This document shows positions 1 through 54,248 of a stretch of 64,000 nucleotides of DNA, one piece after another. The stretch lies in the NCBI RefSeq assembly GCF_030013595.1, contig NZ_CP122768.1; one strand, 5' to 3'. Positions within the stretch are counted from its first letter, which is position 1. Each line of letters begins with the position of its first letter. Under the pieces are notes generated by a model that was not told where the DNA came from, did no database searches, and saw only the letters and a list, made by a program, of their open reading frames with translations. The position numbers were made by a program, and so were the translations under genes. Origin of the DNA: Escherichia coli (lineage in GTDB: Bacteria; Pseudomonadota; Gammaproteobacteria; Enterobacterales; Enterobacteriaceae).

Positions 1-2495
1 CGCATCCGGCAAACTGGCTGACGTTACAACGTTTAAACGATACCCAGTATGAAGCCCGCGTACCGGTGAGCAATTCCTTTGCGCCTAACATCACTTTTTC
101 GGTGCTGTATACCCGTAACGGTCAGTACAGTTTTCAGAACGCCGGGATCAAAGTTGCCGTTCCCCAGCTGGATATCCGGGTGAAAACGGACAAAACCCAT
201 TACCAGCCTGGTGAACTGGTTAATGTCGAATTAACCTCGTTGCTGAAAGGTAAACCTGTTTCTGCGCAGCTAACGGTTGGCGTGATCGATGAAATGATCT
301 ACGCGCTGCAACCGGAAATCGCGCCGAATATCGGCAAATTTTTCTATCCGCTGGGGCGTAACAATGTGCGTACCAGCTCCAGTCTGTCGTTTATCAGCTA
401 CGACCAGGCGCTCTCCAGCGAGCCGGTTGCGCCTGGCGCGACTAACCGCAGCGAGCGGCGAGTAAAAATGCTTGAACGTCCACGGCGTGAAGAGGTGGAT
501 ACCGCGGCATGGATGCCGTCACTCACAACCGATAAACAAGGCAAAGCGTATTTCACGTTCCTGATGCCTGATTCGTTAACCCGCTGGCGCATTACCGCGC
601 GTGGGATGAGCGGCGACGGGTTGGTCGGGCAGGGGAGTGCTTATCTGCGTTCGGAAAAAAATCTCTACATGAAGTGGAGTATGCCAACGGTGTATCGCAT
701 GGGCGACAAACCGGCAGCAGGACTGTTTATCTTCAGTCAGCAGGATAACGAACCGGTGGCGCTGGTGACTAAATTTGCAGGCGCTGAGATGCGCCAGACG
801 CTGACGCTGCACAAAGGGGCGAATTATATTTCGCTGACGCAGAACATTCAGCAATCTGGCTTGTTAAGCGCAGAACTGCAACAAAATGGGCAAGTGCAGG
901 ACAGCATTAGCACAAAACTGTCTTTTGTGGATAACAGCTGGCCCGTTGAACAGCAGAAAAATGTCATGCTCGGCGGTGGCGATAACGCGCTGATGTTGCC
1001 CGAGCAGGCGAGCAATATCCGGCTACAAAGTAGTGAAACGCCGCAGGAGATTTTCCGTAACAATCTTGATGCGTTAGTCGATGAACCGTGGGGTGGCGTG
1101 ATCAACACCGGTAGCCGTCTGATCCCGCTCAGTCTCGCCTGGCGTTCGCTTGCCGATCATCAAAGTGCCGCCGCTAACGACATTCGTCAGATGATTCAGG
1201 ATAACCGTCTGCGGCTGATGCAACTGGCGGGGCCCGGAGCGCGCTTTACCTGGTGGGGTGAAGATGGCAATGGTGACGCCTTCCTTACGGCATGGGCATG
1301 GTACGCCGACTGGCAGGCCAGCCAGGCGCTCGGCGTAACGCAGCAACCGGATTACTGGCAACATATGCTCGACAGTTATGCCGAGCAGGCAGATAACATG
1401 CCGTTATTGCATCGCGCGCTGGTGCTGGCGTGGGCACAGGAGATGAATCTGCCGTGCAAAACGTTGTTGAAAGGGTTGGATGAAGCTATCGCCCGGCGCG
1501 GAACTAAAACTGAAGATTTCTCTGAGGAAGACACCCGCGATATCAATGACAGCCTGATCCTCGATACACCGGAATCTCCACTAGCAGATGCGGTGGCAAA
1601 CGTCTTAACCATGACGTTGCTGAAAAAAGCGCAGTTGAAGTCCACGGTGATGCCACAGGTTCAGCAATATGCGTGGGATAAAGCGGCAAACAGCAATCAG
1701 CCGCTGGCGCACACGGTTGTGCTGCTCAATAGCGGGGGCGACGCTACCCAGGCGGCTGCTATTTTAAGTGGTTTGACCGCTGAGCAATCTACTATTGAGC
1801 GCGCGCTGGCCATGAACTGGCTGGCGAAATATATGGCGACAATGCCTCCAGTTGTGTTGCCTGCGCCTGCGGGCGCATGGGCCAAACATAAGTTAACTGG
1901 AGGGGGCGAATACTGGCGTTGGGTTGGTCAGGGCGTGCCGGACATTCTCTCTTTTGGTGACGAATTATCGCCGCAAAATGTGCAGGTCCGCTGGCGTGAA
2001 CCGGCAAAAACGGCTCAACAAAGTAACATTCCGGTGACCGTTGAACGCCAGTTGTATCGGCTTATCCCCGGTGAAGAAGAGATGAGCTTTACTCTGCAGC
2101 CGGTGACCAGCAATGAGATTGACAGCGATGCGCTGTATCTCGATGAAATCACGCTTACCAGCGAGCAGGATGCAGTTCTGCGCTATGGTCAGGTGGAAGT
2201 ACCGCTCCCGCCGGGAGCCGATGTTGAGCGCACAACATGGGGCATTTCGGTCAATAAACCCAACGCCGCGAAACAGCAGGGGCAATTGCTGGAAAAAGCG
2301 CGAAATGAAATGGGCGAACTGGCCTATATGGTGCCGGTGAAAGAACTGACGGGAACGGTCACTTTCCGCCATTTGCTGCGCTTCTCGCAAAAAGGGCAAT
2401 TCGTTCTGCCTCCTGCTCGTTATGTGCGTTCCTATGCACCTGCACAGCAAAGTGTTGCGGCAGGGAGCGAATGGACCGGGATGCAGGTGAAATAA
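1..2495 (+). CDS. yfaS: alpha-2-macroglobulin family protein YfaS, C-terminal part (5' end outside window)
   Basis: Reading frame of ORF 66..2495 stays open back to window position 1; followed by yfaQ/yfaP homologs in conserved order; identity recalled from E. coli synteny. Confidence 0.8.
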
Positions 2496-8989: not shown

Positions 8990-9030
8990 GCTATGCAGAA
9001 AATTGCGCACTGTGCAAATTTCTGCATAGC
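8990..9030. promoter_or_regulatory. AtoC enhancer-like inverted repeat
   Basis: near-perfect 41 bp palindrome gctatgcagaaaattgcgcac/tgtgcaaatttctgcatagc about 90 bp upstream of the sigma54 element. Confidence 0.7.
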
Positions 9031-9041
9031 AAGTTTTGGCG

Positions 9042-10427
9042 TTATACATCCGCCGGATCGATACCGTATTCCTGCAGTTTATACATCAATGCACGGCGAC
9101 TGATGCCCAGCATTAAAGCAGTGCGGGTTCGGTTTCCTTCTTGTTGTTCCAGCACTTCCATAATGATGCGTTTTTCGACGCGTTTAATTTCCTCTTTTAA
9201 ATTACGCTCACCGACAGGGGCTGTTTTTGCCTCACCAGCATTACAGACTGGCTGACGAATCTGTGGCGGAAGATCCTCAGAAAAAATGATCGGGCCTGAG
9301 TTCATCACGACGGCGCGTTCAATAACGTTGGAAAGCTCTCGAATATTTCCCGGCCATGACCAGGCGGTAAGCAGTGACATTGCCATCGGATCGATGTCGA
9401 TAATATCGCGCTGATTCTCACTACTGAATTTTTGCAAAAAGTGATTAGCTAACAGGGAAATATCTTCCCGGCGATCGCGCAGAGGCGGCAGTATTAAATG
9501 AATAACGTTAAGGCGATAAAAGAGATCTTCACGGAAGGTGCCTTCTTTTACCATTGCCTGCAAGTCACGGTTGGTGGCAGCAATGATGCGGATATCAACT
9601 TTTATGGTCTGATGGCCGCCAATCCGTTCAAATTCCCGTTCCTGCAGAATGCGTAGTAATTTGGCTTGCAGTACGAGCGGCATTTCGCCAATTTCGTCGA
9701 GGAGCAGAGTACCTTCGTTGGCACGTTCAAATAATCCCTGACGCAAGGTTTGTGCACCAGTAAATGCACCTTTTTCATGACCAAACAGTTCACTTTCGAG
9801 CAACGATTCCGGCAGCGCCGCGCAGTTGACTTTAATGAACGGCCCCTTTGCCCGCCGCGAATTGTAGTGAATCGCTCTGGCAATCAACTCTTTCCCGGTG
9901 CCGCTTTCACCGCTAATCAAGACGCTGGCCTGAGAAAGGGCAATTTTGGCGGTGTCTTTGCAGATGTCCATCATCGCCGGGCTGTTGGTGAGAATGTGCC
10001 CCCATTGCCAGCTGGTGCTCAGTGCCTGGTGCAGATGGCGGATCTCTTTTTTCATTGACTGGAGTTGTAAAGCGCGCTGAACGATTAAATTCAACTCATC
10101 GAGATCAAACGGTTTGATAACATAGTCGAAGGCTCCGCAGCGTAGCGCTTCGACGGCGTTTTCCACTTCAGCATAGGCCGTCATCAGAATAACGGGTGTC
10201 CGGGTCTCATTACTGCGCATCTCCTTGAGTGCCTTGATGCCGTCCATCTCTGGCATGCGGATATCCATCAACACCACGTCAGGGTGAATATCAGCAAACA
10301 GGTGTAATGCTGTGCGTCCGTTGTTCGCACAATGTGTTTCGAAACCTTGTAGTGCAAAAGCGGTGCTCAGCATACGGCGAACATTATCTTCATCATCCAC
10401 AATAAGGATGCGATTAATAGCAGTCAT
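9042..10427 (-). CDS. atoC: NtrC-family sigma54-dependent response regulator AtoC
   Basis: 461 aa with receiver domain, AAA+ GESGTGKE Walker A, GAFTGA motif and C-terminal HTH. Confidence 0.93.
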   Translation of the reverse strand: MTAINRILIVDDEDNVRRMLSTAFALQGFETHCANNGRTALHLFADIHPDVVLMDIRMPEMDGIKALKEMRSNETRTPVILMTAYAEVENAVEALRCGAFDYVIKPFDLDELNLIVQRALQLQSMKKEIRHLHQALSTSWQWGHILTNSPAMMDICKDTAKIALSQASVLISGESGTGKELIARAIHYNSRRAKGPFIKVNCAALPESLLESELFGHEKGAFTGAQTLRQGLFERANEGTLLLDEIGEMPLVLQAKLLRILQEREFERIGGHQTIKVDIRIIAATNRDLQAMVKEGTFREDLFYRLNVIHLILPPLRDRREDISLLANHFLQKFSSENQRDIIDIDPMAMSLLTAWSWPGNIRELSNVIERAVVMNSGPIIFSEDLPPQIRQPVCNAGEAKTAPVGERNLKEEIKRVEKRIIMEVLEQQEGNRTRTALMLGISRRALMYKLQEYGIDPADV

Positions 10428-46562: not shown

Positions 46563-47156
46563 TCATGCCCCCGCGAGGCTTGCAACGTTAATTTTAACCA
46601 GGCGACGGGGAGGGATTTTGAAAGCACTAAGCCAGTTATTCGGATCCCCCTGATATTCAGTAATCCGCCGTCCGGCTTCATCCATTCTTACGGTTTTACG
46701 CAAATAGCCCGGCGTATTTTCCACAGCCCACTGAACACTGTCTTTTGCAGCCTGGTAAATCTGATCTTCCAGCACCGCCAGCGTTGCAGAATCTGAAACG
46801 GAACGAATATCCACATCACTGAATTTTTTAGCCAGCTTCTGTGCACCAATTAATGCACGCTTGCGGTAATCCATCGACTTTTCACCAGCAAACGGGGCTG
46901 GAGCGCGACGGCCCATATTGCTGTATGCGGAATCCGCTTTAGCCTGGGCTTCTGCCAGTGAGGATTCATCTTCGACTGACGCGACGATGTTTTTATTCGC
47001 GTCATCCTCGTCCGCTTTTGTGAAATCCTGTGCGGGGATCGCATTCAGAATTTCGATAATCTCCTGCGGAGTGCTGCCCTGCGACTCTGACAGAGCGTTA
47101 ACCACCTCCATCAGTTTTAATCGCAAATCTTCTTTGCTTGCTGGCATTTTTACCAC
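46563..47156 (-). CDS. hypothetical protein (island cargo)
   Basis: 197 aa ORF, acidic central region; no motif I can assign. Confidence 0.55.
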   Translation of the reverse strand: MVKMPASKEDLRLKLMEVVNALSESQGSTPQEIIEILNAIPAQDFTKADEDDANKNIVASVEDESSLAEAQAKADSAYSNMGRRAPAPFAGEKSMDYRKRALIGAQKLAKKFSDVDIRSVSDSATLAVLEDQIYQAAKDSVQWAVENTPGYLRKTVRMDEAGRRITEYQGDPNNWLSAFKIPPRRLVKINVASLAGA

Positions 47157-47186
47157 CTCTCTTTTTTCACCAAAAAATCACGACCA

Positions 47187-47384
47187 TCAGGCCGGACGTT
47201 CTACGGGATAAAGCGCCCGCTGCATTAAACGCCGGGCGACCTCATGAATGCTCGGAGCAATCCCCAGCGGAGAATTGCGGCGTTCCTCGTCCTGGATGCG
47301 CTGTAATGCTTCAATCTGATCACGAGCGAGTAAAACGGGTTTCACGCTGGCTTTTCTCATAGTCATATCTCCTGAACAAAACAA
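47187..47384 (-). CDS. hypothetical small protein, possibly ribbon-helix-helix-like
   Basis: 65 aa ORF with KPVLLARDQIEALQRI segment; start codon uncertain. Confidence 0.4.
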   Translation of the reverse strand: MFCSGDMTMRKASVKPVLLARDQIEALQRIQDEERRNSPLGIAPSIHEVARRLMQRALYPVERPA

Positions 47385-47532
47385 TGATTATGATTGCACA
47401 AACTGAAATAACGATCTACATCATTGCAATTTATGAAACAATAACGCATGATGATCGCGTTCTTCCCATTGACTTCAATCACCTGAAAAACAAAGCCCGC
47501 AACACTTCTGGCTGCGGGTTTTTTACTGGCAC

Positions 47533-47560
47533 AAAAAAGCCGGGAAAAATCCCGGCCTCC
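47533..47560 (-). terminator. terminator after PerC-like gene
   Basis: minus-strand hairpin gccgggatttttcccggc followed by T-run, directly after stop at 47562. Confidence 0.6.
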
Positions 47561-47561
47561 G

Positions 47562-47849
47562 TCACTGACTGCAATTTTTCGATCCAGGGTATTTCCTGAA
47601 TGCCTTACCATTGGGCTGATGTAATCCCATCCCGGCATGTGCCCGGCTGATGGTTTCGCGCATTTCCCCGAAATTATCCTGCCTTGCTGGTGGGCGTGCT
47701 GCCTTGCGGATACATTCCGCGCGACGTTTTGCCGCCTGTTCCCGTGCCTTGTCATCATTCGCCAGCATGATGACCTCAGCCCACCGCGCCGCCGCTCTCC
47801 GGTACAGACCACGCGCTTCCAGTGCTTCCGCTTTGCTGTCGTGAATCAT
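47562..47849 (-). CDS. PerC-family transcriptional regulator-like protein
   Basis: 95 aa with AEALEARGLYRRAAARWAEV motif typical of PerC-like proteins on E. coli mobile elements. Confidence 0.6.
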   Translation of the reverse strand: MIHDSKAEALEARGLYRRAAARWAEVIMLANDDKAREQAAKRRAECIRKAARPPARQDNFGEMRETISRAHAGMGLHQPNGKAFRKYPGSKNCSQ

Positions 47850-48388
47850 GCGCCTGTTTTCTCCTTTGCTGCCCGGCGCTGACGTTTGCGCTTCTCATTC
47901 AGCGCCACCAGCCGCGTTTCTGCGTCCTGTTGTTCCTGTGGTGTCACCTCGCCGCACGGCTGGCCTTTCAGGTCGTAGCGTACCCCACCAGCCATTAAGG
48001 CGCGGTAATAGCGCGGACACTGCGCATAAGATGCCAGCGTCGCACGCAATGCCCCTGGACCGAATGCCAGCCCCCTGACGGCGAGATCCTGCATCAGGTC
48101 GTCGAATATCCCCACCTTAAGCGGCTTCGGTGCTTCCCGGCTGAATAATTCAGGCCACAACTCAGTGAGGCGGTTAACGCGCCTGCGGTTTTTGCGCTGG
48201 CGTTTGGTCATATGCCGCCACGGTGTCGCCCCTGTGGGCTTCTGCTGCGCTTTCTGGTTACCGGGCATCACTTTATGCGCCGATGTGGTTTTATCCTGCT
48301 CCTGCGCCGCCTGCGTCGTTTTCTGCGGCGTGCCGTAAATGCCTTTCGGTTTTCTGTTAATGGTCAGCTTAGTCATGCTTTGCCCCAT
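47846..48388 (-). CDS. ProQ/FinO-domain RNA-binding protein
   Basis: 180 aa; LTELWPELF...PKPLKVGIFDDL...YAQCPRYYRAL...RYDLKGQPCGEV closely resembles ProQ/FinO domain signature. Confidence 0.7.
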   Translation of the reverse strand: MGQSMTKLTINRKPKGIYGTPQKTTQAAQEQDKTTSAHKVMPGNQKAQQKPTGATPWRHMTKRQRKNRRRVNRLTELWPELFSREAPKPLKVGIFDDLMQDLAVRGLAFGPGALRATLASYAQCPRYYRALMAGGVRYDLKGQPCGEVTPQEQQDAETRLVALNEKRKRQRRAAKEKTGA

Positions 48389-48537
48389 CGTTTTTACTGG
48401 TTGCTACGTTGCCCAACGGCACTGACACAACATTCTGTTTTCATTTTTAACATTCCTGATTTTTTAATTCCTCACCTGCTGCACAGTGAAAATTTATGAA
48501 GTTAATAACAATATGATTTTAAATGTATTTTTAAGTA

Positions 48538-48858
48538 CTCACTTTTTAATCCTTATATATACGCAAAAGTGAGGTAAATAGTTAAGTTTTAGTTAATATC
48601 TTGCATGGTGTGTTTTTTAACCTACCTGTTATTTTTATTACCTCATTTCTATTAACTCACCATTCCTCACTTTTGTTCCTCACTTTTTATTATTCTTGTT
48701 CTGCTCCTCAGTCGTTTTCTTTATTGTTGTAATCTGTTGTTTTGCAATGTGTTTTTAACTCCTCACTTTTTGACCTATATACAGGTGAGAAAGTGAGGAG
48801 TGGCGTTGATTTTTTGTTAAATTACCCGCCATCCTCACTTTTGCTCCTCACTTTTTAC
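48538..48858. repeat. iteron array in AT-rich region (putative island replication origin)
   Basis: at least 8 copies of TCCTCACTTTT in both orientations directly after the replication gene stop. Confidence 0.75.
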
Positions 48859-50270
48859 AGTGGGCGCACATAATCACCGTCAATAGCGATTACGCCGTCG
48901 CTTTCCAGCTTGTACAGCCAGCGCCGGAAGTGTTTCATCTCATACCCCAGCTTTTTCATATCATCGCGGAGAAGGGCGATAGTGCACGCCTCCCCGTGTG
49001 CTGTTCGCGTTCTGATGCACTGCCATAGCGCAGCGTGATTTTCCGTCTTGTTCCCGGCCTCCTCGATGCGTTCCAGTTCAACAGGTGGGCGCGGCTTATC
49101 CACAACCACCAGCGACGTGATTAACTCCCCGTCAGTGTCGGTAAAAAGCTCCACCACGCGTAAATCATATGCAGCCTCTTTCAGTTCCTCCGCGTCCTTC
49201 ATTTTGGTGCAGGAGATAACCAGGGCTTCACTGTCCGCACCTTCACGGCGAATACGGTATTCAGCGTCCAGAGATGCACGAAATGCACTGGAACCACGCG
49301 CCCCTTTTGTTTCATCCTTGCCGGAATGGTGAACCACCAGTACCGTGGCCCCTGTGCGTCGTTTCAGTTCGTCACATCCACGGATAAACGCCCCCATATC
49401 CCGCGCGTCATTTTCATCATTACCGCCAAAGCAACGCGCCAGCGTATCCAGAATAATCATGCGTACCGGTTTACCCGTTTCCCGTTCAACCTGACGGGAA
49501 GCGATGACCATTTCATCAACATCAAGCGGGACCGCCGGAAAAATCGGGCGGTTTACCAGGTACAGATTTTTCACCCGTTCATCATTAACGATTTCCCATG
49601 CTTTGATACGACGAGGAACACCGATCCCGCCCTCACCAACGACATACATAACCGCACCATGTACAACCCTGCGACCTCCCCAGTGGCGACCAGTGGCAAC
49701 ATGACACGCCCAGGAACACGCGAGGAACGATTTATAGGAACCGCTCGCGCCGTATGTGCTGCACAACGAATTAGCCGGAATCACGCCCTTAACGACATAA
49801 TCAAGCTGTGTGTCGTATCCTGCAGATCCAATACTCATTGGTAGCGTGGTTTTTCGCTGGCTGTATTGCTCGTCAGTAAGTATTTCCCCGCGCTCTGCCT
49901 GTTCGCGGATCCGTTGCAGGTAGTCGTGCCAGTTCTCCAGCTTCTGGCTGTGCATTCCCTCAGGGTAATAATTCGCATCCCGTACACCTGCCGCCGCCAG
50001 TTTTTGCCCGATGGCATTAATATTTGACGGCTTGATGTGGCCTGCCTTGTACAGCCGGACACAATAGCGACCATCGTCGATAATTTTCAGGTCTGCCAGT
50101 TCGTCAAGCTGGCTGTCTCCCAGCCATACAGGCGGAACATTGTCGCCAGCAAGTCGCCCGTCCTGTTCCTGCCATTGTTTCGCGTGCGCCCAGGCATCAC
50201 TACCCGCAAAAATAATGACTTCGGTCATTTTGTCGTGTGGCTGTTTTTTTAAGTTCGGTGCCAGTTTCAT
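48855..50270 (-). CDS. replication initiator ATPase/helicase (RecA-fold, primase-associated type)
   Basis: 471 aa with Walker A GASGSYKS and Walker B-like RMIILDTL; followed by iterons. Confidence 0.7.
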   Translation of the reverse strand: MKLAPNLKKQPHDKMTEVIIFAGSDAWAHAKQWQEQDGRLAGDNVPPVWLGDSQLDELADLKIIDDGRYCVRLYKAGHIKPSNINAIGQKLAAAGVRDANYYPEGMHSQKLENWHDYLQRIREQAERGEILTDEQYSQRKTTLPMSIGSAGYDTQLDYVVKGVIPANSLCSTYGASGSYKSFLACSWACHVATGRHWGGRRVVHGAVMYVVGEGGIGVPRRIKAWEIVNDERVKNLYLVNRPIFPAVPLDVDEMVIASRQVERETGKPVRMIILDTLARCFGGNDENDARDMGAFIRGCDELKRRTGATVLVVHHSGKDETKGARGSSAFRASLDAEYRIRREGADSEALVISCTKMKDAEELKEAAYDLRVVELFTDTDGELITSLVVVDKPRPPVELERIEEAGNKTENHAALWQCIRTRTAHGEACTIALLRDDMKKLGYEMKHFRRWLYKLESDGVIAIDGDYVRPL

Positions 50271-50566
50271 TTTGTGCCCCTGAATGCGTTAATCATGTTT
50301 TTCATTTTCTGAATATTTGCCCGTGCCTTTGCGTTGCTGGTGGGCTGTTTGCGTGGTGTGGCCTGTATCAGTGAAAAATCACGCCGGAACTGATAAACAG
50401 GCATCACGCAGTCGTAGCTGTACCCATCACGGCGGTAAGTAACGCACCGTCCGGCAATACTTTTAATCGTTACCGTGCCGCCGTAGTTATCCCGGAAAAT
50501 ATCGCCGGGGCGGATTTCAGGCCGAGGGAGACCACTGGCAGTAAAGCCAGAATTTTTCTTTTTCAT
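50267..50566 (-). CDS. hypothetical protein
   Basis: 99 aa ORF, start overlaps upstream gene stop (operon). Confidence 0.5.
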   Translation of the reverse strand: MKKKNSGFTASGLPRPEIRPGDIFRDNYGGTVTIKSIAGRCVTYRRDGYSYDCVMPVYQFRRDFSLIQATPRKQPTSNAKARANIQKMKNMINAFRGTK

Positions 50567-50570
50567 GGTT

Positions 50571-50771
50571 TTATTTTCCTGTCAGCAGTTCCGGTTTTAT
50601 TTCCGCACGAATACAGAGTTCAGAAAAAAATTCAGGAGAACCAACAATCTCATTACTTTTCAGTCGGCATTGTGATTTCACTTTCCCTTTATCCAGGTAA
50701 ACCAGTATGCGTCCGGTGAAATCATCTGGCACACTCAGGGTAATTGTCATTGTTGCTTGCTGATTATCCAT
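50571..50771 (-). CDS. hypothetical small protein, single copy of a ~55 aa repeated domain
   Basis: 66 aa; motif DDFTGRILVYLDKGKV...GSPEFFSEL homologous to both halves of the upstream 121 aa protein. Confidence 0.55.
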   Translation of the reverse strand: MDNQQATMTITLSVPDDFTGRILVYLDKGKVKSQCRLKSNEIVGSPEFFSELCIRAEIKPELLTGK

Positions 50772-51129
50772 GATTCACCCCCTGAATAACCTGATAACCG
50801 CAACTGGTCAGCAATTCGATAAATTCCGGCAGTGTTCCGAAACAGCAATCATCTCGCAGCCGTTCTCGGGATACTTCAACGCCGTTTTCGTAGTGACTCA
50901 CCATGCGTCCGGTAAAATGCAGATCATCATCGTGATGGCTCGTTAACGGCTTAATCAGTCGCGCACGTTCTGCCAGCTCCAGCAATGCTTCAACGCTTCC
51001 GGCAATTGCACCATCCGGCAGGTGATAATTACTTGCCACGCGTCCATTCTCCACGTTAACCAGTAGCTGCCCGGTGAATTTCTCATCAAACTGAATGCTG
51101 TTAAGGTCAGAAATTGACAGGTTAATCAT
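50764..51129 (-). CDS. hypothetical protein, tandem duplication of the same ~55 aa domain
   Basis: 121 aa; EKFTGQLLVNVENGRV...GSVEALLEL and LHFTGRMVSHYENGVEV...GTLPEFIELL. Confidence 0.55.
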   Translation of the reverse strand: MINLSISDLNSIQFDEKFTGQLLVNVENGRVASNYHLPDGAIAGSVEALLELAERARLIKPLTSHHDDDLHFTGRMVSHYENGVEVSRERLRDDCCFGTLPEFIELLTSCGYQVIQGVNHG

Positions 51130-51325
51130 GGCGTACCTCCTGGCGAATACGGGCAGCGAATACCATCACGCAGCCATCAGGAGATTGCTGACGCGCTTCC
51201 TGTTCGCTGGTGGCCTCAATGGTAATCACGCGCGGTTGTGCCGTGCTCAGGGCGATAAAACGCCAGATGTATTTATTCAGGTTGTGCGAGTCCCGCCCTT
51301 GCGGGTGTGTGGTATGATTTCTCAT
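51122..51325 (-). CDS. hypothetical small protein, first gene of island operon
   Basis: 67 aa with SD gaggt before ATG at 51325; overlaps next gene start (ATGATTAA). Confidence 0.45.
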   Translation of the reverse strand: MRNHTTHPQGRDSHNLNKYIWRFIALSTAQPRVITIEATSEQEARQQSPDGCVMVFAARIRQEVRHD

Positions 51326-51420
51326 AGCTACCTCGATACTCTTTCTATCGTTGGTGGTTAGAAGCCCCGTTACTGCTCCAACAGTGCGGGGTTTCGTCGT
51401 TTCTGTGCCTTGCATTAACA

Positions 51421-51505
51421 AGGTGTAAGACACAATGTAAAATACAAGTGTCTTACACGTCAAGCCTTCAAAATAATTTTTTTTCGTGTATATTGTCTTA
51501 CACCA
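51421..51505. promoter_or_regulatory. operator cluster: three copies of GTGTAAGACAC / GTGTCTTACAC
   Basis: ggtgtaagacac (51421), gtgtcttacacg (51449), ttgtcttacacc (51493) between divergent island transcription units. Confidence 0.6.
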
Positions 51506-51524
51506 ACAACATAAGGAGTTAGAC

Positions 51525-51704
51525 ATGGCAACAGGTCCAAAGAATGCAAAATCACAATCTGTAACTGCACGTATTGCCCATGAAATTATTGAAGGCATGG
51601 AAAACGTGAAAGAAGAAGGCGAAAGTACAGGGCAGTTTATAAGTGCAGCCATGCGCGGCGAGATCAAACGCCGCCAGCGCCGCAAGGCCAAAGAGCAGGA
51701 ATAG
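51525..51704 (+). CDS. small DNA-binding regulator, ribbon-helix-helix-like (candidate island repressor)
   Basis: 59 aa from MATGPKN with RBS aaggag; SVTARIAHEIIEGM resembles an RHH beta-strand/helix; divergent from operon. Confidence 0.5.
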   Translation: MATGPKNAKSQSVTARIAHEIIEGMENVKEEGESTGQFISAAMRGEIKRRQRRKAKEQE

Positions 51705-51805
51705 CCCACCAGCAAGCCAGCACACTGATCACATTGCCAACCGGATGTAATCACGGCATAGTAATCATCTCTCTTGCGTTGGGGATAACGCGCAATTAGT
51801 GTTGA

Positions 51806-51836
51806 AGGGCCACCGTAGCGGGTGGCCTTTTCTTTG
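51806..51836 (+). terminator. rho-independent terminator
   Basis: ggccaccgtagcgggtggcc hairpin plus ttttcttt. Confidence 0.55.
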
Positions 51837-51986
51837 CCTGTTATCCGGCAATTGTGGCGCTTCGCCACACGGTTGATATAATTCCCCTGCACTGATCCAT
51901 TTTTTTCGCAGCAGGTTAATTGTTCGCAAGGGCGCTCCGGTAACGGGGCGCTTTTTGTTATGTTCATCGCGTTACGCCTCACACCA

Positions 51987-52193
51987 TTACGCAGCCGTTC
52001 CGCGCGCTTCTTCCTCGCGCTCTTTCAGCCAGGCCAGCACTTCATCTTCATACCAGCCAACACGACGCAGACCGATTTTGAATCCTTTCGGGAATTTTCC
52101 GGCGTTGATCATGTCCTGTAGCGAACTGTCTGCCTTGATGCGCAGAATATTTTTTACTTCCTGACGGGTAAGAATTTTTCTGATTACTTCCAT
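51987..52193 (-). CDS. alpA: AlpA-family phage regulatory protein (excisionase/activator-like)
   Basis: 68 aa; ...GKFPKGFKIGLRRVGWYEDEVLAWL matches the AlpA HTH signature. Confidence 0.75.
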   Translation of the reverse strand: MEVIRKILTRQEVKNILRIKADSSLQDMINAGKFPKGFKIGLRRVGWYEDEVLAWLKEREEEARGTAA

Positions 52194-52261
52194 CGTGTTT
52201 TACCTCATTAATCCGGCGTATTCCGGTGATAAATACGGTAAAACAGGGCAGGGCGGGAAAA

Positions 52262-52295
52262 ACAGTACCCACCGTTTTAAAACGGTACCCACTGT
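52262..52295. promoter_or_regulatory. palindrome ACCGTTTTAAAACGGT flanked by GTACCCAC repeats upstream of alpA
   Basis: perfect 16 bp palindrome 52271..52286 about 80 bp upstream of alpA start. Confidence 0.4.
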
Positions 52296-52325
52296 TTTTT
52301 ATCTCATTGATTTCGCTTTCTTTTT

Positions 52326-52358
52326 GCAAAAAAATAGCGACCGCAAGGGCCGCTATTG
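52326..52358 (-). terminator. terminator after the 80 aa ORF
   Basis: minus-strand hairpin atagcggcccttgcggtcgctat followed by T-run. Confidence 0.55.
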
Positions 52359-52361
52359 TGA

Positions 52362-52604
52362 TTACCGCTTCCACTTCTTAGGTCGCCCACCGCATTTAAG
52401 GCTGGTGGGTCTCAGCACCTTGTCGATGCTTTCAGCCAGATTTTTCGATGCGCCACGCGAGCGCAAAAAACTGACTACCTCGTGTTTTGTGGGGGCTGTT
52501 GATTTGTCTTCCGGATCGTACGTTGACCAGAATTCACGATTTGCCATTAAGGCCAACTGAAGACCTTCACCATAGGCAGGGGATACCTTTTCATTGAAAA
52601 ACAC
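52362..52604 (-). CDS. hypothetical small protein between int and alpA
   Basis: 80 aa ORF followed directly by a terminator; basic C-terminus. Confidence 0.4.
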   Translation of the reverse strand: MFFNEKVSPAYGEGLQLALMANREFWSTYDPEDKSTAPTKHEVVSFLRSRGASKNLAESIDKVLRPTSLKCGGRPKKWKR

Positions 52605-52720
52605 CTGGATAGCTCCTTGAATTTCATGATTTGGGTGACTCCTCTCTGTATTGGGTGGGTTGTGGCGATTATACGATGGTTTAGCATGGTTTGCATCGCT
52701 TTTACTGGTTTTTTGTACAG

Positions 52721-53962
52721 TTATACGGCACGGATACCCCTTTTACCACTGGCTATGGTCACTCCAGTTGCTGCGGCCTCTACAAATTCCCCCCACCAGC
52801 GCATAAGCACCACGCGCTTTTCCAGGTAGTTACTTCGGTTATATGCTCGCCTTACCTCGTTCGTGTCCACGTGTGCGAGTGCGGCCTCGATTACGTCCGG
52901 CTCGAATCCTTCCTCGTTCGCTGCTGTACTGAATATGGCGCGTAATCCGTGAGACACCAGCACACCAGCGTAACCCATCCGGCGTAATGCAGCGTTAGCG
53001 GTCTGGCTGCTCATTGGTAGCATTGGATTTTTAAGGCTGGGAAAAACATGTTCCCTGTGTGCGCTGATTGGCTTCATGGTTTCCAGTACAGCCATAGCCT
53101 GACCGCAAAGGGGGATCACATGGTCACGGCGCATCTTCATGCGTCCGGCTGGAATCGTCCAGGTTTCGGCATCGAGATCTATTTCTTCCCAGCGTGCGGC
53201 GGCTGCTTCGGCTGGGCGTGCTACGGTCAACAGTTGCCACTCGATCAGCAATCTGGTTTGCCGTTCTATGCTGGCGACCGATAAATCGTGCATTAGCTGC
53301 GGTAGCTGTTCCGGTCGGATGGTTGGCATGTGCTTTTTGGTGGGTGAGGGAAATGCCTTGCGGACGTTAGCAGCGGTGTTGATGTCAATCAGCCCACTGT
53401 TGGCGGCAAAATCCATCACTTCATTGATGCGCTGCAAAACGCGTTTCAGTGTTTCCAGGTTGCCGCGTGCTTTAATGGGGGTGAGTATCTCAACAAAGCG
53501 GCGAGCGGTGAGGGTATCTATTGGCGTGTTTCCGATGTACGGGAATACGTATTTTTCCAGGGATCGCCAGATATCCTTAATCGTGTTGTAAGCCAGATTC
53601 TGGCCTTTTTTCATCTCGTACCAGTCCGAGGCAACTTTTTCGAACGTGTTGCCCTTTTTCCGACTCTCTGCTTCACGTTTCCGGCGTTCGTGGTCCTGTG
53701 GGTCAACTCCCTTCGCTATGAGTGACCTGTATTCATTCCGTCGTTCTCTGGCATCGGACAGGGAAACATCATTCAGCGATCCGAGGCTGATGATAGTCCG
53801 TTTTTTATCTGCCGGGCGGTAGTACGTAAAACGCCAGATTTTTGATCCGGAGGGTTTCACCAGAAGAAATAATCCTCCGCCATCCTGCAGGGTGTATTCC
53901 TTTTCCCCTGGTCGTGCGTTTTTGATCTCCGTAATAGTTAGTGGGGTGGTTTTTCGTGCCAT
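52721..53962 (-). CDS. int: tyrosine-type site-specific integrase (P4-like)
   Basis: 413 aa; N-terminal arm-binding-like domain, C-terminal catalytic region with HGLRA...RRAYNRSNY; adjacent to tRNA. Confidence 0.9.
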   Translation of the reverse strand: MARKTTPLTITEIKNARPGEKEYTLQDGGGLFLLVKPSGSKIWRFTYYRPADKKRTIISLGSLNDVSLSDARERRNEYRSLIAKGVDPQDHERRKREAESRKKGNTFEKVASDWYEMKKGQNLAYNTIKDIWRSLEKYVFPYIGNTPIDTLTARRFVEILTPIKARGNLETLKRVLQRINEVMDFAANSGLIDINTAANVRKAFPSPTKKHMPTIRPEQLPQLMHDLSVASIERQTRLLIEWQLLTVARPAEAAAARWEEIDLDAETWTIPAGRMKMRRDHVIPLCGQAMAVLETMKPISAHREHVFPSLKNPMLPMSSQTANAALRRMGYAGVLVSHGLRAIFSTAANEEGFEPDVIEAALAHVDTNEVRRAYNRSNYLEKRVVLMRWWGEFVEAAATGVTIASGKRGIRAV

Positions 53963-53978
53963 GTTTTTTTACTCATCG

Positions 53979-54053
53979 GTAGCTATATGCCTGGTCGTAG
54001 CTATACGGCTTTAGCTACACGCTGGACCGTATAGCTAAACGTGTAGCTAAAAA
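53979..54053 (+). repeat. cluster of five GTAGCTA(T/A)A-type repeats (putative integrase arm sites), including the 25 bp copy at 54029..54053
   Basis: gtagctata, cgtagctatacgg, ttagctacacg, gtatagctaaacg, gtgtagctaaaaa. Confidence 0.6.
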
Positions 54054-54171: not shown

Positions 54172-54248
54172 TGGTCGGCACGAGAGGATTTGAACCTCCG
54201 ACCCCCGACACCCCATGACGGTGCGCTACCAGGCTGCGCTACGTGCCG
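54172..54248 (-). tRNA. proL: tRNA-Pro (anticodon GGG)
   Basis: minus-strand 77 nt CGGCACGTAGCGCAGCCTGGTAGCGCACCGTCATGGGGTGTCGGGGGTCGGAGGTTCAAATCCTCTCGTGCCGACCA. Confidence 0.95.

What the first reader, a model, noticed from the sequence alone, without database searches (positions are those of the whole stretch)
48538..48858. Iteron-type origin downstream of the replication ATPase gene
At least eight copies of TCCTCACTTTT in both orientations lie in a strongly AT-rich stretch directly after, and overlapping, the 3' end of the 471 aa RecA-fold ATPase gene. This is the classical architecture of an autonomous replicon origin.
Basis: partly seen in the sequence, partly recalled or inferred. Interest (0 to 1): 0.45.

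Follow-up and report, generated by a model that had tools for sequence, protein, structure and literature searches.

The report
Replication origin of a phage satellite
The repeats are real and mark the replication origin of a roughly 10-kb phage-satellite island (a PICI) in the E. coli chromosome, which is a known kind of origin; in this copy, however, the initiator protein carries the "wrong" DNA-reading residue for its own repeats.

Summary
Eight copies of TCCTCACTTTT (five exact, three with one mismatch; six on +, two on -) lie in 48536-48855, against about 0.8 expected in the whole window. The stretch has 33% GC against 52% overall and abuts the stop codon of the 471-aa gene.

The region is the ori of a ~10-kb PICI integrated at yejM/tRNA-Pro, not of a plasmid. 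Its Rep is 86% identical to that of the published EcCI042, whose rep-proximal region has the same iterons in the same layout. Rep combines a RepA(RSF1010)-like helicase core with a C-terminal winged helix.

One result appears to be new. Across more than 60 relatives the iterons come in two alleles, GTGAGG and GTGGGG. These covary almost perfectly with one residue at the start of the recognition helix (N447 with A, H447 with G). The rule also held in most distant homologues examined.

The window is the only intact exception, with H447 facing A-type iterons. A single crossover at 48940-48959 with a cq9-type mosaic island explains it. Whether this mismatched pair still replicates is untested.

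Verdict: a known kind of origin and a new member of it, of moderate interest.

The parts
48855..50270 (-). rep: 471-aa initiator-helicase. It has an N-terminal domain shared among PICI Reps (~1-131), a RepA/RecA-fold ATPase (~150-390) and a C-terminal winged helix (~410-471).
   Evidence: PF13481 AAA_25, E = 2e-44. phrog_2850 matches full length. 86% identical to the EcCI042 Rep. AF2 model pLDDT 92.5. Foldseek top hits are RSF1010 RepA 1olo/1g8y/1nlf, TM 0.70-0.74. The N-terminal domain is 62% identical to that of EcCICFT073 Pri-Rep.
48858..49043 (-). Codons 410-471: the winged-helix origin-binding domain (H1 410-424, H2 431-440, recognition helix H3 448-457, beta-hairpin wing 461-470).
   Evidence: AF2 secondary structure. 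The domain-only model matches winged-helix DNA-binding domains (DtxR/IdeR, LexA, Fur, MCM and Rpa2 WH), TMq 0.6-0.69.
48930..48932 (-). Codon 447 (CAC, His), the residue that covaries with the iteron allele. It is discordant in this copy.
   Evidence: Mutual information 0.885 of a possible 0.995, next-best column 0.33; 58 of 59 distinct proteins obey the rule. Exact-pattern counts are N+A 30, H+G 30, H+A 1, N+G 0. The nearest relatives have AAC/Asn here.
48940..48959 (.). Inferred crossover interval. To its left the window equals the cq9-type island; to its right it equals the ETEC6335-type island.
   Evidence: No differences from cq9 over 45414-48959 and none from ETEC6335 over 48940-50640.
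48660..48857 (.). Conserved core ori (about +1 to +195 from the rep stop codon).
   Evidence: Iteron positions +2>, +15>, +58<, +66<, +87>, (~+142>), +170>, +183> recur in both iteron alleles. A module breakpoint lies at about 48656 (partial hits to query 257-501).
48832..48855 (+). Tandem iteron pair (48832-48842 and 48845-48855) abutting the rep stop codon; 13-nt pitch.
   Evidence: family D4.
48760..48799 (.). Inverted iteron pair (48760-48770 on +, 48789-48799 on -) around a TATATAC centre, plus a half-site AGGTGAG at 48783-48789.
   Evidence: (I3: 22-nt arms, 86% complementary).
48688..48759 (.). T/AT-rich spacer between the two iteron sets of the core ori (GC 0.31); the inferred unwinding region.
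   Evidence: The role is inferred by analogy with published PICI and SaPI oris.
48664..48687 (+). Distal tandem iteron pair of the core ori (48664-48674 and 48677-48687).
48389..48659 (.). Optional AT-rich extension (GC 0.295, minimum 0.20). It holds a second inverted iteron pair (48536-48546 on +, 48565-48575 on -) and a weak copy at 48468-48478.
   Evidence: It is present in only a minority of relatives (WIN, L025, L062). Its inverted-repeat module resembles the core one (I1).
50267..50566 (-). DUF4222 gene immediately upstream of rep, conserved next to both Rep types.
   Evidence: PF13973, E = 2.7e-24. Annotated context.
51987..52193 (-). AlpA-family regulator of the island.
   Evidence: PF05930. 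AlpA controls induction of EcCICFT073 (PMC6092414).
52721..53962 (-). Tyrosine integrase of the island.
   Evidence: PF00589, PF22022 and PF13356.
54038..54053 (.). att direct repeat AACGTGTAGCTAAAAA (integrase-proximal), lying between int and tRNA-Pro (54172-54248).
   Evidence: 16-nt exact repeat shared with 44057-44072. tRNA-Pro. yejM/yejL lies beyond it.
44057..44072 (.). att direct repeat at the distal end of the island; the island spans about 44057-54053 (~10.0 kb).
   Evidence: yejO lies beyond it.

Best explanation
The region is the replication origin (ori) of an integrated phage-inducible chromosomal island (PICI) of the EcCI042 type. Shown here: the iterons are real, they hold fixed positions directly 3' of rep across a large family, they are more conserved than the spacers, and their sequence tracks one residue of Rep's C-terminal winged helix. 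Inferred mechanism: after helper-phage induction and excision, Rep binds the 10-11-nt iterons (consensus TCCTCACTTTT, read as AAAAGTGAGG in the rep direction) through the recognition helix of its winged-helix domain. Residue 447, at the start of that helix, reads the fourth base of the GTG[A/G]G core. Rep bound at the two iteron sets (48760-48855 and 48664-48687) then melts the AT-rich spacer between them (48688-48759). Its own RepA-like hexameric helicase core loads there without DnaA or a separate loader, as described for SaPI Reps. This Rep has no Toprim/primase domain, so priming is presumably done by the host; that step is not shown. In this particular copy Rep carries His447, which everywhere else pairs with GTGGG iterons, while all its iterons are GTGAG. 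The pair is probably a recent recombinant, and its efficiency is unknown.
For: Statistics of the repeats. AT-richness. The context is a PICI: integrase, AlpA, DUF4222, rep, ProQ/FinO and PerC all on one strand; 16-nt att repeats; ~10 kb; the yejM/tRNA-Pro/yejO site. Rep is 86% identical to that of the published EcCI042, and EcCI042's rep-proximal region has CCTCACTTTT iterons in the same layout. [quoted passage not shown] The layout is conserved in 63 distinct oris; iteron columns score 0.90 against 0.71 for spacers, p about 1e-8. Residue 447 covaries with the iteron allele: MI 0.885 of 0.995, 58 of 59 distinct proteins, 8-17 inferred switches on Rep trees. Collection-wide pattern counts are 30, 30, 1 and 0. 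In distant homologues, 3 of 3 informative N-type proteins have GTGAG, 3 of 4 H-type have GTGG and 1 is mixed, and the one K-type has GTGGG. Residue 447 sits at the N-cap of recognition helix H3 of a confidently modelled winged helix. The ATPase core matches the RSF1010 RepA helicase. There are no DnaA boxes in the ori. The iteron block stays with rep whatever gene lies downstream, whether ProQ, SSB or a hypothetical gene.
Against: No experiment has tested this ori or any RepA-type PICI ori. The tested EcCICFT073 replicon uses an unrelated SF3 (D5-type) helicase and TCTACC iterons, and EcCI042 gave no detectable transfer in the published assay (Table 1). Codon 447 lies only about 75 nt from the first iteron, so part of the covariation could reflect linkage; against that, the physically closer residues 448-471 covary far less. 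The window's own Rep breaks the rule, so either the rule is not absolute or this ori is poorly served by its Rep. The unwinding site and the source of priming are inferred, not shown.
Confidence: 0.85

Rival explanations
1. The origin is genuine by descent but crippled in this copy. The crossover that gave Rep the His447 recognition residue left it mismatched with its GTGAG iterons. The island would then replicate poorly on its own, or only with an N447 Rep supplied in trans by a co-resident PICI.
For: Among 59 distinct Rep proteins the window is the only H+A case. Scans of the viral and metagenome collections found H+A only in pseudogene remnants: L095, L164 and cq9. No identical copy exists in 5,426 complete E. 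coli genomes; the best hits have N447. The recombinant origin is traceable. Asn reading A and His or Lys reading G fits general protein-DNA readout preferences (established knowledge). E. coli genomes carry up to 3 such modules.
Against: His can contact adenine in some complexes. Binding is multivalent, with 8 or more sites and a hexameric protein, so a single weakened contact may be tolerated. SaPI Rep1 showed low discrimination between oris in vitro (PMC9371898). There is no functional test.
Confidence: 0.35
2. The repeats are operator sites for a transcription regulator that controls the downstream ProQ/FinO-PerC operon, or terminates rep transcription, and are not an origin.
For: They lie in the 466-nt gap between rep and the next gene on the same strand. 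Origin iterons in other systems often also act in autoregulation (general knowledge).
Against: The repeat block keeps its register with the rep stop codon while the downstream gene changes among ProQ, SSB and hypothetical genes. It covaries with a residue of Rep, not of any regulator. No sigma-70-like promoter or terminator was found on the relevant strand. The published PICI ori sits at the same position.
Confidence: 0.05
3. The repeats form a packaging (cos/pac) site or recombination (att arm) site of the island.
For: PICIs do carry cos sites and integrase arm sites somewhere in the element (PMC6092414).
Against: The att repeats lie at 44057 and 54038, 4-5 kb away. The published PICI cos sequences bear no resemblance to the iterons. 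The covariation is with Rep, not with the integrase or TerS.
Confidence: 0.02

Closest known systems
EcCI042 rep-ori module (E. coli 042 PICI; one of the four Pri-Rep alleles in Fillol-Salom et al. 2018, PMC6092414)
   Same: Rep is 86% identical and of the same length class. The same CCTCACTTTT iterons occur directly 3' of rep: a tandem pair at the stop codon, an inverted pair around a TATAC centre, and distal direct copies. The island architecture is the same: int, AlpA-like HTH, Icd-like, DUF4222, rep, PerC.
   Different: The window has an extra ~270-nt AT-rich extension with a second inverted pair. It sits at a different att site (yejM/tRNA-Pro rather than tqsA), has ProQ/FinO rather than SSB downstream, and has a different morphogenesis module. 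Its Rep has H447, whereas EcCI042 has N447.
EcCICFT073 Pri-Rep/ori, the experimentally validated Gram-negative PICI replicon
   Same: The ori lies immediately 3' of rep, with short iterons in both orientations and an AT-rich centre. The first ~131 residues of Rep are 62% identical. The upstream DUF4222 gene is the same.
   Different: Its helicase is the D5_N/DUF5906/Pox_D5 (SF3) type rather than AAA_25/RepA. Its iterons are TCTACC-type.
SaPI Rep/ori (S. aureus pathogenicity islands; Ubeda et al., Qiao et al. 2022, PMC9371898)
   Same: Rep is both initiator and self-loading helicase. A C-terminal winged helix reads the iterons. Six to twelve iterons lie immediately downstream of rep, around an AT-rich centre, with iterons in opposite orientations.
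   Different: SaPI Reps are AAA+ (SF3/MCM-like) 3'-5' helicases, whereas this Rep has a RecA-fold RepA/SF4-like core. SaPI iterons are 5-6 nt; these are 10-11 nt. There is no sequence homology.
RSF1010 (IncQ) RepA helicase
   Same: It is the closest solved structure to the ATPase core (1g8y, 1nlf, 1olo), with sequence E = 0.005 and TM 0.70-0.74.
   Different: RSF1010 RepA has no origin-binding domain and depends on a separate initiator (RepC) and primase (RepB'). This protein carries its own winged helix and an unrelated N-terminal domain, and the island has no repC or repB homologue nearby.
Classical iteron plasmid origins (pSC101, F, R6K, RK2, P1)
   Same: Repeated initiator-binding sites lie next to an AT-rich unwinding region, and a winged-helix domain reads the repeats.
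   Different: Those iterons are 17-22 bp direct repeats in helical phase, accompanied by DnaA boxes, and their Rep is a non-ATPase WH1-WH2 protein that recruits host DnaB. Here the repeats are 10-11 nt at 13-nt pitch in both orientations, there is no DnaA box, and the initiator is itself a helicase.

Membership tests
Gram-negative PICI replication module (Fillol-Salom et al. 2018) | The ori lies immediately 3' of the replication initiator gene. | tested here: met
   The first iteron ends on the stop codon, and all 8 lie within 320 nt downstream.
Gram-negative PICI replication module (Fillol-Salom et al. 2018) | Two sets of iterons flank an AT-rich region. | tested here: met
   The sets at 48760-48855 and 48664-48687 flank a 72-nt spacer of GC 0.31. 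A further inverted pair lies in a 20-30% GC extension.
Gram-negative PICI replication module (Fillol-Salom et al. 2018) | The host element is a PICI: ~8-12 kb, with int and alpA, unidirectional transcription, and a dedicated att site. | tested here: met
   The int, AlpA, DUF4222, rep, ProQ and PerC genes are all on the - strand. 16-nt direct repeats lie 9,981 nt apart. The site is yejM/tRNA-Pro/yejO, listed as a PICI att site in Table S1. The published att core sequence for that site was not found.
Gram-negative PICI replication module (Fillol-Salom et al. 2018) | Rep is homologous to a described PICI Pri-Rep allele. | tested here: met
   86% identity to the EcCI042 Rep over its full length. 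The N-terminal domain is 62% identical to that of EcCICFT073 Pri-Rep.
Gram-negative PICI replication module (Fillol-Salom et al. 2018) | The rep-ori segment drives autonomous replication, and deleting the ori abolishes it. | not testable with these tools
   This has been shown only for EcCICFT073, which has a different helicase class.
Gram-negative PICI replication module (Fillol-Salom et al. 2018) | A helper phage induces excision, replication and packaging. | not testable with these tools
   There are no experimental data for this island.
SaPI-type self-loading Rep helicase/initiator | A C-terminal winged-helix domain recognises the iterons. | tested here: met
   The AF2 topology is H-H-H-beta-beta, and winged-helix DNA-binding domains are the best structural matches. 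Iteron-residue covariation maps to the start of H3. Binding itself is inferred.
SaPI-type self-loading Rep helicase/initiator | An AAA+ (SF3/MCM-like) ATPase core. | tested here: not met
   The core is AAA_25, a RecA-fold RepA-like domain. The system therefore works like a SaPI Rep but is not a member of that protein family.
IncQ RepA helicase system | A RepA-like hexameric RecA-fold helicase core. | tested here: met
   1g8y at E = 0.005 over residues 153-326; Foldseek TM 0.70-0.74. The hexameric state was not tested.
IncQ RepA helicase system | A separate initiator (RepC) binds 20-bp direct iterons, and there is a dedicated primase (RepB'). | tested here: not met
   No such genes are in the island. 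The origin-binding domain is fused to the helicase.
Classical plasmid iteron origin (RepE/TrfA/Pi type) | 17-22-bp direct repeats in helical phase, DnaA boxes, and a non-ATPase WH1-WH2 initiator. | tested here: not met
   The repeats are 10-11 nt, at 13-nt pitch, in both orientations. No DnaA box with up to 1 mismatch lies in 48380-48860. The initiator carries an ATPase.
Satellite phage P4 ori/crr with alpha protein | An alpha-type primase-SF3 helicase and type I iterons (TGTTCACC). | tested here: not met
   Rep is an AAA_25 protein with no primase or D5 domains. The iteron sequence is different. The P4 iteron sequence is quoted from memory.

The most novel reading that the evidence does not exclude
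A single residue at the N-cap of the Rep recognition helix (position 447) acts as the switch that sets origin specificity in this large family of satellite initiator-helicases: Asn reads GTGAG, and His or Lys reads GTGGG. All 6-12 iterons of an ori flip together with that residue, which would create mutually exclusive replicon 'types' among co-resident satellites. The window would then hold a natural mismatched intermediate, an intact Rep that picked up His447 from a decayed gene remnant by one crossover and now faces Asn-type iterons. That would offer a ready-made test case for how initiator and origin co-evolve.
Probability: 0.4. Interest if true: 0.5.

Novelty: new member of a known kind. 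Interest (0 to 1): 0.35.

Why it matters
The origin itself is an expected part of a known class of phage satellite, so it mainly serves correct annotation. In RefSeq relatives the region is unannotated or carries a spurious 50-aa ORF. Three points go further.

First, the RepA-type PICI replicon occurs in about 12% of complete E. coli genomes (648 of 5,426), yet no experiment on it turned up; the published replication test used EcCICFT073, which has a different helicase class.

Second, the one-residue, one-base covariation gives a precise and cheap-to-test hypothesis for how these initiators tell their own origin from that of a co-resident satellite.

Third, the window carries the only intact discordant pair found in any collection searched. 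Its ancestry can be traced to a crossover with a pseudogene remnant, so it is a natural experiment on the tolerance of initiator-origin recognition.

Tried and rejected
1. The published att core for the yejM site (TTTGTAGTTATACG...) gave no match with up to 2 mismatches. The island is bounded by a different 16-nt repeat.

2. The sigma-70 promoter and intrinsic terminator scan of 48300-48950 found nothing relevant on the - strand, so it gives no support to an operator or terminator reading.

3. A DnaA-box search found none in the ori. The perfect box at 49096-49104 lies inside rep and may be chance or a by-product of coding.

4. Rfam found only the tRNA, so there is no known RNA element in the ori.

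5. Pfam and NCBIfam gave no assignment for the Rep N-terminal domain, so its function remains unknown. I did not model or fold-search it separately.

6. I first considered a short gene-conversion patch as the source of H447, because only two changes 7 nt apart separate the window from ETEC6335. I replaced this with a single-crossover model once the 3.5 kb of perfect identity with cq9 to the left became clear.

7. The distant homologue P0017 showed no recognisable iterons downstream and is uninformative. P0024 had a mixed TGAGGAA/TGGGGAA set and does not fit the rule cleanly.

8. The metagenome scan for other H+A pairs returned only a cq9-type remnant and one unrelated chance hit.

9. ED1a, the fourth published Pri-Rep allele, was not in the collection, so it was not compared.

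Full report
**1. The observation**

The motif TCCTCACTTTT, allowing one mismatch, occurs 9 times in the 64-kb window, and 8 of those fall in 48536-48855. Five are exact (48664, 48677, 48760, 48832, 48845, all on +). Three have one mismatch (48536 on +; 48565 and 48789 on -). Dinucleotide-preserving shuffles give 0.8 matches for the whole window and never reach 9.

A weight matrix built from the 8 copies shows that the informative core is 11 nt. It recovers the same 8 sites plus one weak one. The 5-nt core CTCAC/GTGAG is 15 times denser in the rep-proQ gap than in the window as a whole.

The copies are arranged as inverted pair, tandem pair, inverted pair, tandem pair, with spacings of 29, 99, 13, 83, 29, 43 and 13 nt. 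GC is 0.33 over the stated interval against 0.516 for the window, and it falls to 0.20 at 48480-48535.

The adjacent gene (48855-50270, - strand, 471 aa) is an AAA_25 protein. The last iteron ends on the first + strand base of its stop codon, so the 'overlap' with the gene is trivial.

**2. Context: the element is a phage satellite**

All on the - strand lie a tyrosine integrase (52721-53962), an AlpA-family regulator (51987-52193), two phrog_340 genes, DUF4222 (50267-50566) and rep. The repeats follow, then ProQ/FinO, PerC, a DUF2213 protease-like gene and a small HTH/TerS-like gene.

A tRNA-Pro lies beside the integrase. A 16-nt direct repeat (AACGTGTAGCTAAAAA at 44057 and 54038) brackets about 10.0 kb. 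Beyond these repeats lie the core genes yejO and yejM/yejL.

This is the gene order, size, one-directional transcription and attachment site described for Gram-negative phage-inducible chromosomal islands (PICIs) (PMC6092414).

**3. Relation to described PICIs**

[quoted passage not shown] It also shows that the EcCICFT073 rep-ori segment maintains a temperature-sensitive plasmid, whereas the delta-ori and delta-rep versions do not.

I retrieved EcCICFT073. Its Pri-Rep is a D5_N/DUF5906/Pox_D5 (SF3) protein, and its ori carries about 11 TCTACC-type iterons in both orientations. The published EcCI042 instead has a 'helicase RepA family' Rep that is 86% identical to the window's. Its 200-nt rep-proximal gap contains CCTCACTTTT iterons in the same layout. 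The window's ori is therefore an allele of the EcCI042-type PICI ori.

DNA matching the Rep C-terminus plus ori occurs in 648 of 5,426 complete E. coli genomes, and 795 of the 796 matching places are chromosomal.

**4. Comparative anatomy**

I examined 80 IMG/VR loci (Rep 65-97% identical) plus E. coli loci. In these, iterons sit at nearly fixed distances from the rep stop codon: +2>, +15>, +58<, (+66<), +87>, about +142>, +170> and +183>. This conserved core corresponds to window 48660-48855, with a T/AT-rich spacer at 48688-48759 (GC 0.31).

Across 63 distinct core oris, iteron columns are more conserved than spacer columns (0.90 against 0.71, Mann-Whitney p about 1e-8). This holds even though one iteron column is polymorphic.

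The core keeps its register with rep while the downstream gene changes among ProQ, SSB and a hypothetical gene. Partial BLAST hits break at about 48656. Rep and ori therefore move as one cassette.

The window and a few relatives also carry a ~270-nt AT-rich extension (48389-48659) with a second inverted pair. It resembles a partial duplicate of the core's inverted-repeat module and is evidently not essential to the family.

**5. The Rep protein**

AlphaFold2 with a 61-sequence alignment gives a confident model (pLDDT 92.5). It shows an alpha/beta N-terminal domain (about 18-126), a RecA-fold ATPase (about 150-390) and a C-terminal H-H-H-beta-beta domain (410-470).

The ATPase core is closest to the RSF1010 RepA hexameric helicase, both by sequence (E = 0.005) and by fold (TM 0.70-0.74). 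Modelled alone (pLDDT 86.8), the C-terminal domain best matches winged-helix DNA-binding domains: DtxR/IdeR and LexA (including DNA complexes), Fur, and the MCM and Rpa2 winged helices. TMq is 0.6-0.69 and rmsd about 2-2.5 Å, though the E-values are weak.

The N-terminal 131 residues are 62% identical to the N-terminus of EcCICFT073 Pri-Rep, while the rest of the two proteins is unrelated. Many distant relatives carry a Zn-ribbon/Toprim primase in that position. This Rep has none, so priming is presumably left to the host (inference).

**6. Direct evidence that Rep reads the iterons**

De novo k-mer analysis showed two iteron alleles that differ at one base: AAAAGTGAGG (as in the window) and AAAAGTGGGG.

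I scored every Rep alignment column against the iteron allele. Position 447 stands alone, with mutual information 0.885 of a possible 0.995; the next column reaches 0.33. Asn447 pairs with GTGAG in 26 distinct proteins and His447 with GTGGG in 32, with one exception. After the E. coli loci were added, the counts were N/A 30, H/G 33 and H/A 1.

Parsimony on Rep trees implies 8-17 switches of iteron type, matched by 9-18 switches at residue 447. The coupling appears in at least four different C-terminal sequence backgrounds.

Residues 448-471 are physically closer to the ori than 447 yet covary much less, so linkage alone does not explain the pattern.

Exact-pattern scans of the whole IMG/VR collection gave N+A 30, H+G 30, H+A 1 and N+G 0.

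The rule also held in most distant homologues (28-57% identical; the nine examined lie in islands carrying an integrase and/or an AlpA/HTH regulator). P0002, P0004 and P0013 (Asn) have GTGAG iterons. P0020, P0016 and P0026 (His) have GTGG iterons. P0006 (Lys) has GTGGGGG. P0024 (His) is mixed and P0017 is uninformative.

Residue 447 is the N-cap of the recognition helix H3. Asn reading A and His or Lys reading G matches the usual amino-acid/base readout preferences (established knowledge). Together this is strong comparative evidence that the winged helix binds the iterons. It also indicates that residue 447 reads the fourth base of the GTG[A/G]G core, although direct contact is inferred rather than shown.

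**7. The window is the exception**

Its Rep has His447 (CAC, 48930-48932), while all 11 CTCAC/GTGAG cores in the gap are A-type and none is G-type.

The nearest relative, ETEC6335, differs over ori plus rep (1,886 nt) at only 48932 (which gives N447) and 48939 (synonymous). At both positions the window carries the haplotype of the H-type alleles.

Strain cq9 carries a mosaic island. A primase-type rep with its own TCTACC ori is followed by a 136-codon RepA remnant (a pseudogene with His447) and then an orphan A-type ori.

The window is identical to cq9 from 45414 to 48959 without a single difference. It is identical to ETEC6335 from 48940 to 50640. ETEC6335 differs from the window at seven sites further left, between 47337 and 48128. 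One crossover within 48940-48959 between a cq9-type and an ETEC6335-type island therefore explains the window. By it, an intact Rep acquired its last ~32 codons, including His447, from a segment that in cq9 belongs to a dead gene.

The only other H+A cases found are cq9-type remnants: L095 in IMG/VR and L164 in metagenomes. No complete E. coli genome has the window's combination. Whether His447 still serves GTGAG iterons is untested. I put the chance that this copy is functionally impaired at about one in three.

**8. Mechanism (best explanation, confidence 0.85 for the ori assignment)**

On induction, Rep binds the iterons through its winged helix. Rep assembled on the two iteron sets opens the AT-rich spacer. 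The RepA-like helicase core then loads itself there without DnaA (there are no DnaA boxes) and without a separate loader, as proposed for SaPI Reps (PMC9371898).

Shown here: the repeats, their conservation, the covariation and the domain folds. Inferred: binding, the melting site, hexamer loading and the source of priming.

**9. Rivals**

An operator or terminator role is unlikely (0.05). The block follows rep rather than the downstream genes, covaries with Rep, and no promoter or terminator signal was found.

A packaging or att role is very unlikely (0.02).

Chance is excluded.

**10. Novelty and score**

The kind of element is known, and the closest described case, EcCI042, shares the iterons. 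This is therefore a new member of a known kind.

The residue-447/iteron rule and the mismatched recombinant did not appear in the literature I could search, and both are directly testable. They raise interest somewhat but do not change the category. Interest: 0.35.

Noticed in passing
L001 (E. coli cq9) 9001-10180; also L095 and L164: These are mosaic PICIs with two origins in tandem. An EcCICFT073-type ori (11 TCTACC iterons) lies next to a primase-type rep. It is followed by a 136-codon RepA pseudogene remnant and an orphan CCTCAC-type ori that is 100% identical to the window's.
   Followed up: yes
window 1-131 of Rep (49878-50270, - strand) vs L005 10242-10640: The N-terminal ~131 residues of the RepA-type Rep are 62% identical to the N-terminus of the unrelated D5/SF3-type EcCICFT073 Pri-Rep. 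This is a shared PICI-specific module of unknown function with no Pfam match. In distant relatives, Zn-ribbon/Toprim primase domains precede the AAA_25 helicase instead.
   Followed up: partly
L018 (IMG/VR) first 70 nt after rep; L016: Iteron copy number varies. L018 has six tandem G-type iterons at 13-nt pitch next to the stop codon, an expansion. L016 retains only the first two iterons, so its ori is truncated.
   Followed up: no
window 49096-49104 (+): A perfect DnaA box (TTATCCACA) lies inside the rep coding sequence, about 240 nt from the ori. DnaA-like 9-mers with up to 1 mismatch are about twice as frequent in the window as in shuffles (23 against 11.6). The significance is unknown.
   Followed up: no
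window 44057-44072 and 54038-54053: The island is bounded by a 16-nt direct repeat, AACGTGTAGCTAAAAA. This differs from the att core published for PICIs at the same yejM/tRNA-Pro site (TTTGTAGTTATACG...), suggesting a distinct integrase/att allele at that locus.
   Followed up: partly
L091 1541-1693 and L092 1525-1677 (equivalent to about window 48680-48832): RefSeq annotates a 50-aa 'hypothetical protein' (WP_001372362.1) lying entirely within the iteron region. It is probably an annotation artefact over the ori.
   Followed up: no
window 48389-48659: The AT-rich extension carries a second inverted iteron pair (48536/48565) that looks like a diverged copy of the core inverted module (37-nt arms, 73% match). 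It is present in only a few family members, and BLAST hits to the left and right halves of the region occur independently.
   Followed up: partly
window 51122-51982 (- strand): A 286-aa ORF listed mechanically here is probably spurious. In annotated relatives this stretch holds small genes on both strands (YlcI/YnfO-like, Icd-like) and non-coding DNA.
   Followed up: no
window 45845-47156 (- strand): The DUF2213 protein (217 aa) and the following 197-aa protein match consecutive parts of one 545-aa PHROG (phrog_6216), as if a protease-scaffold fusion were split into two genes. This morphogenesis module differs from the capsid and decoration genes of EcCICFT073 and EcCI042.
   Followed up: no
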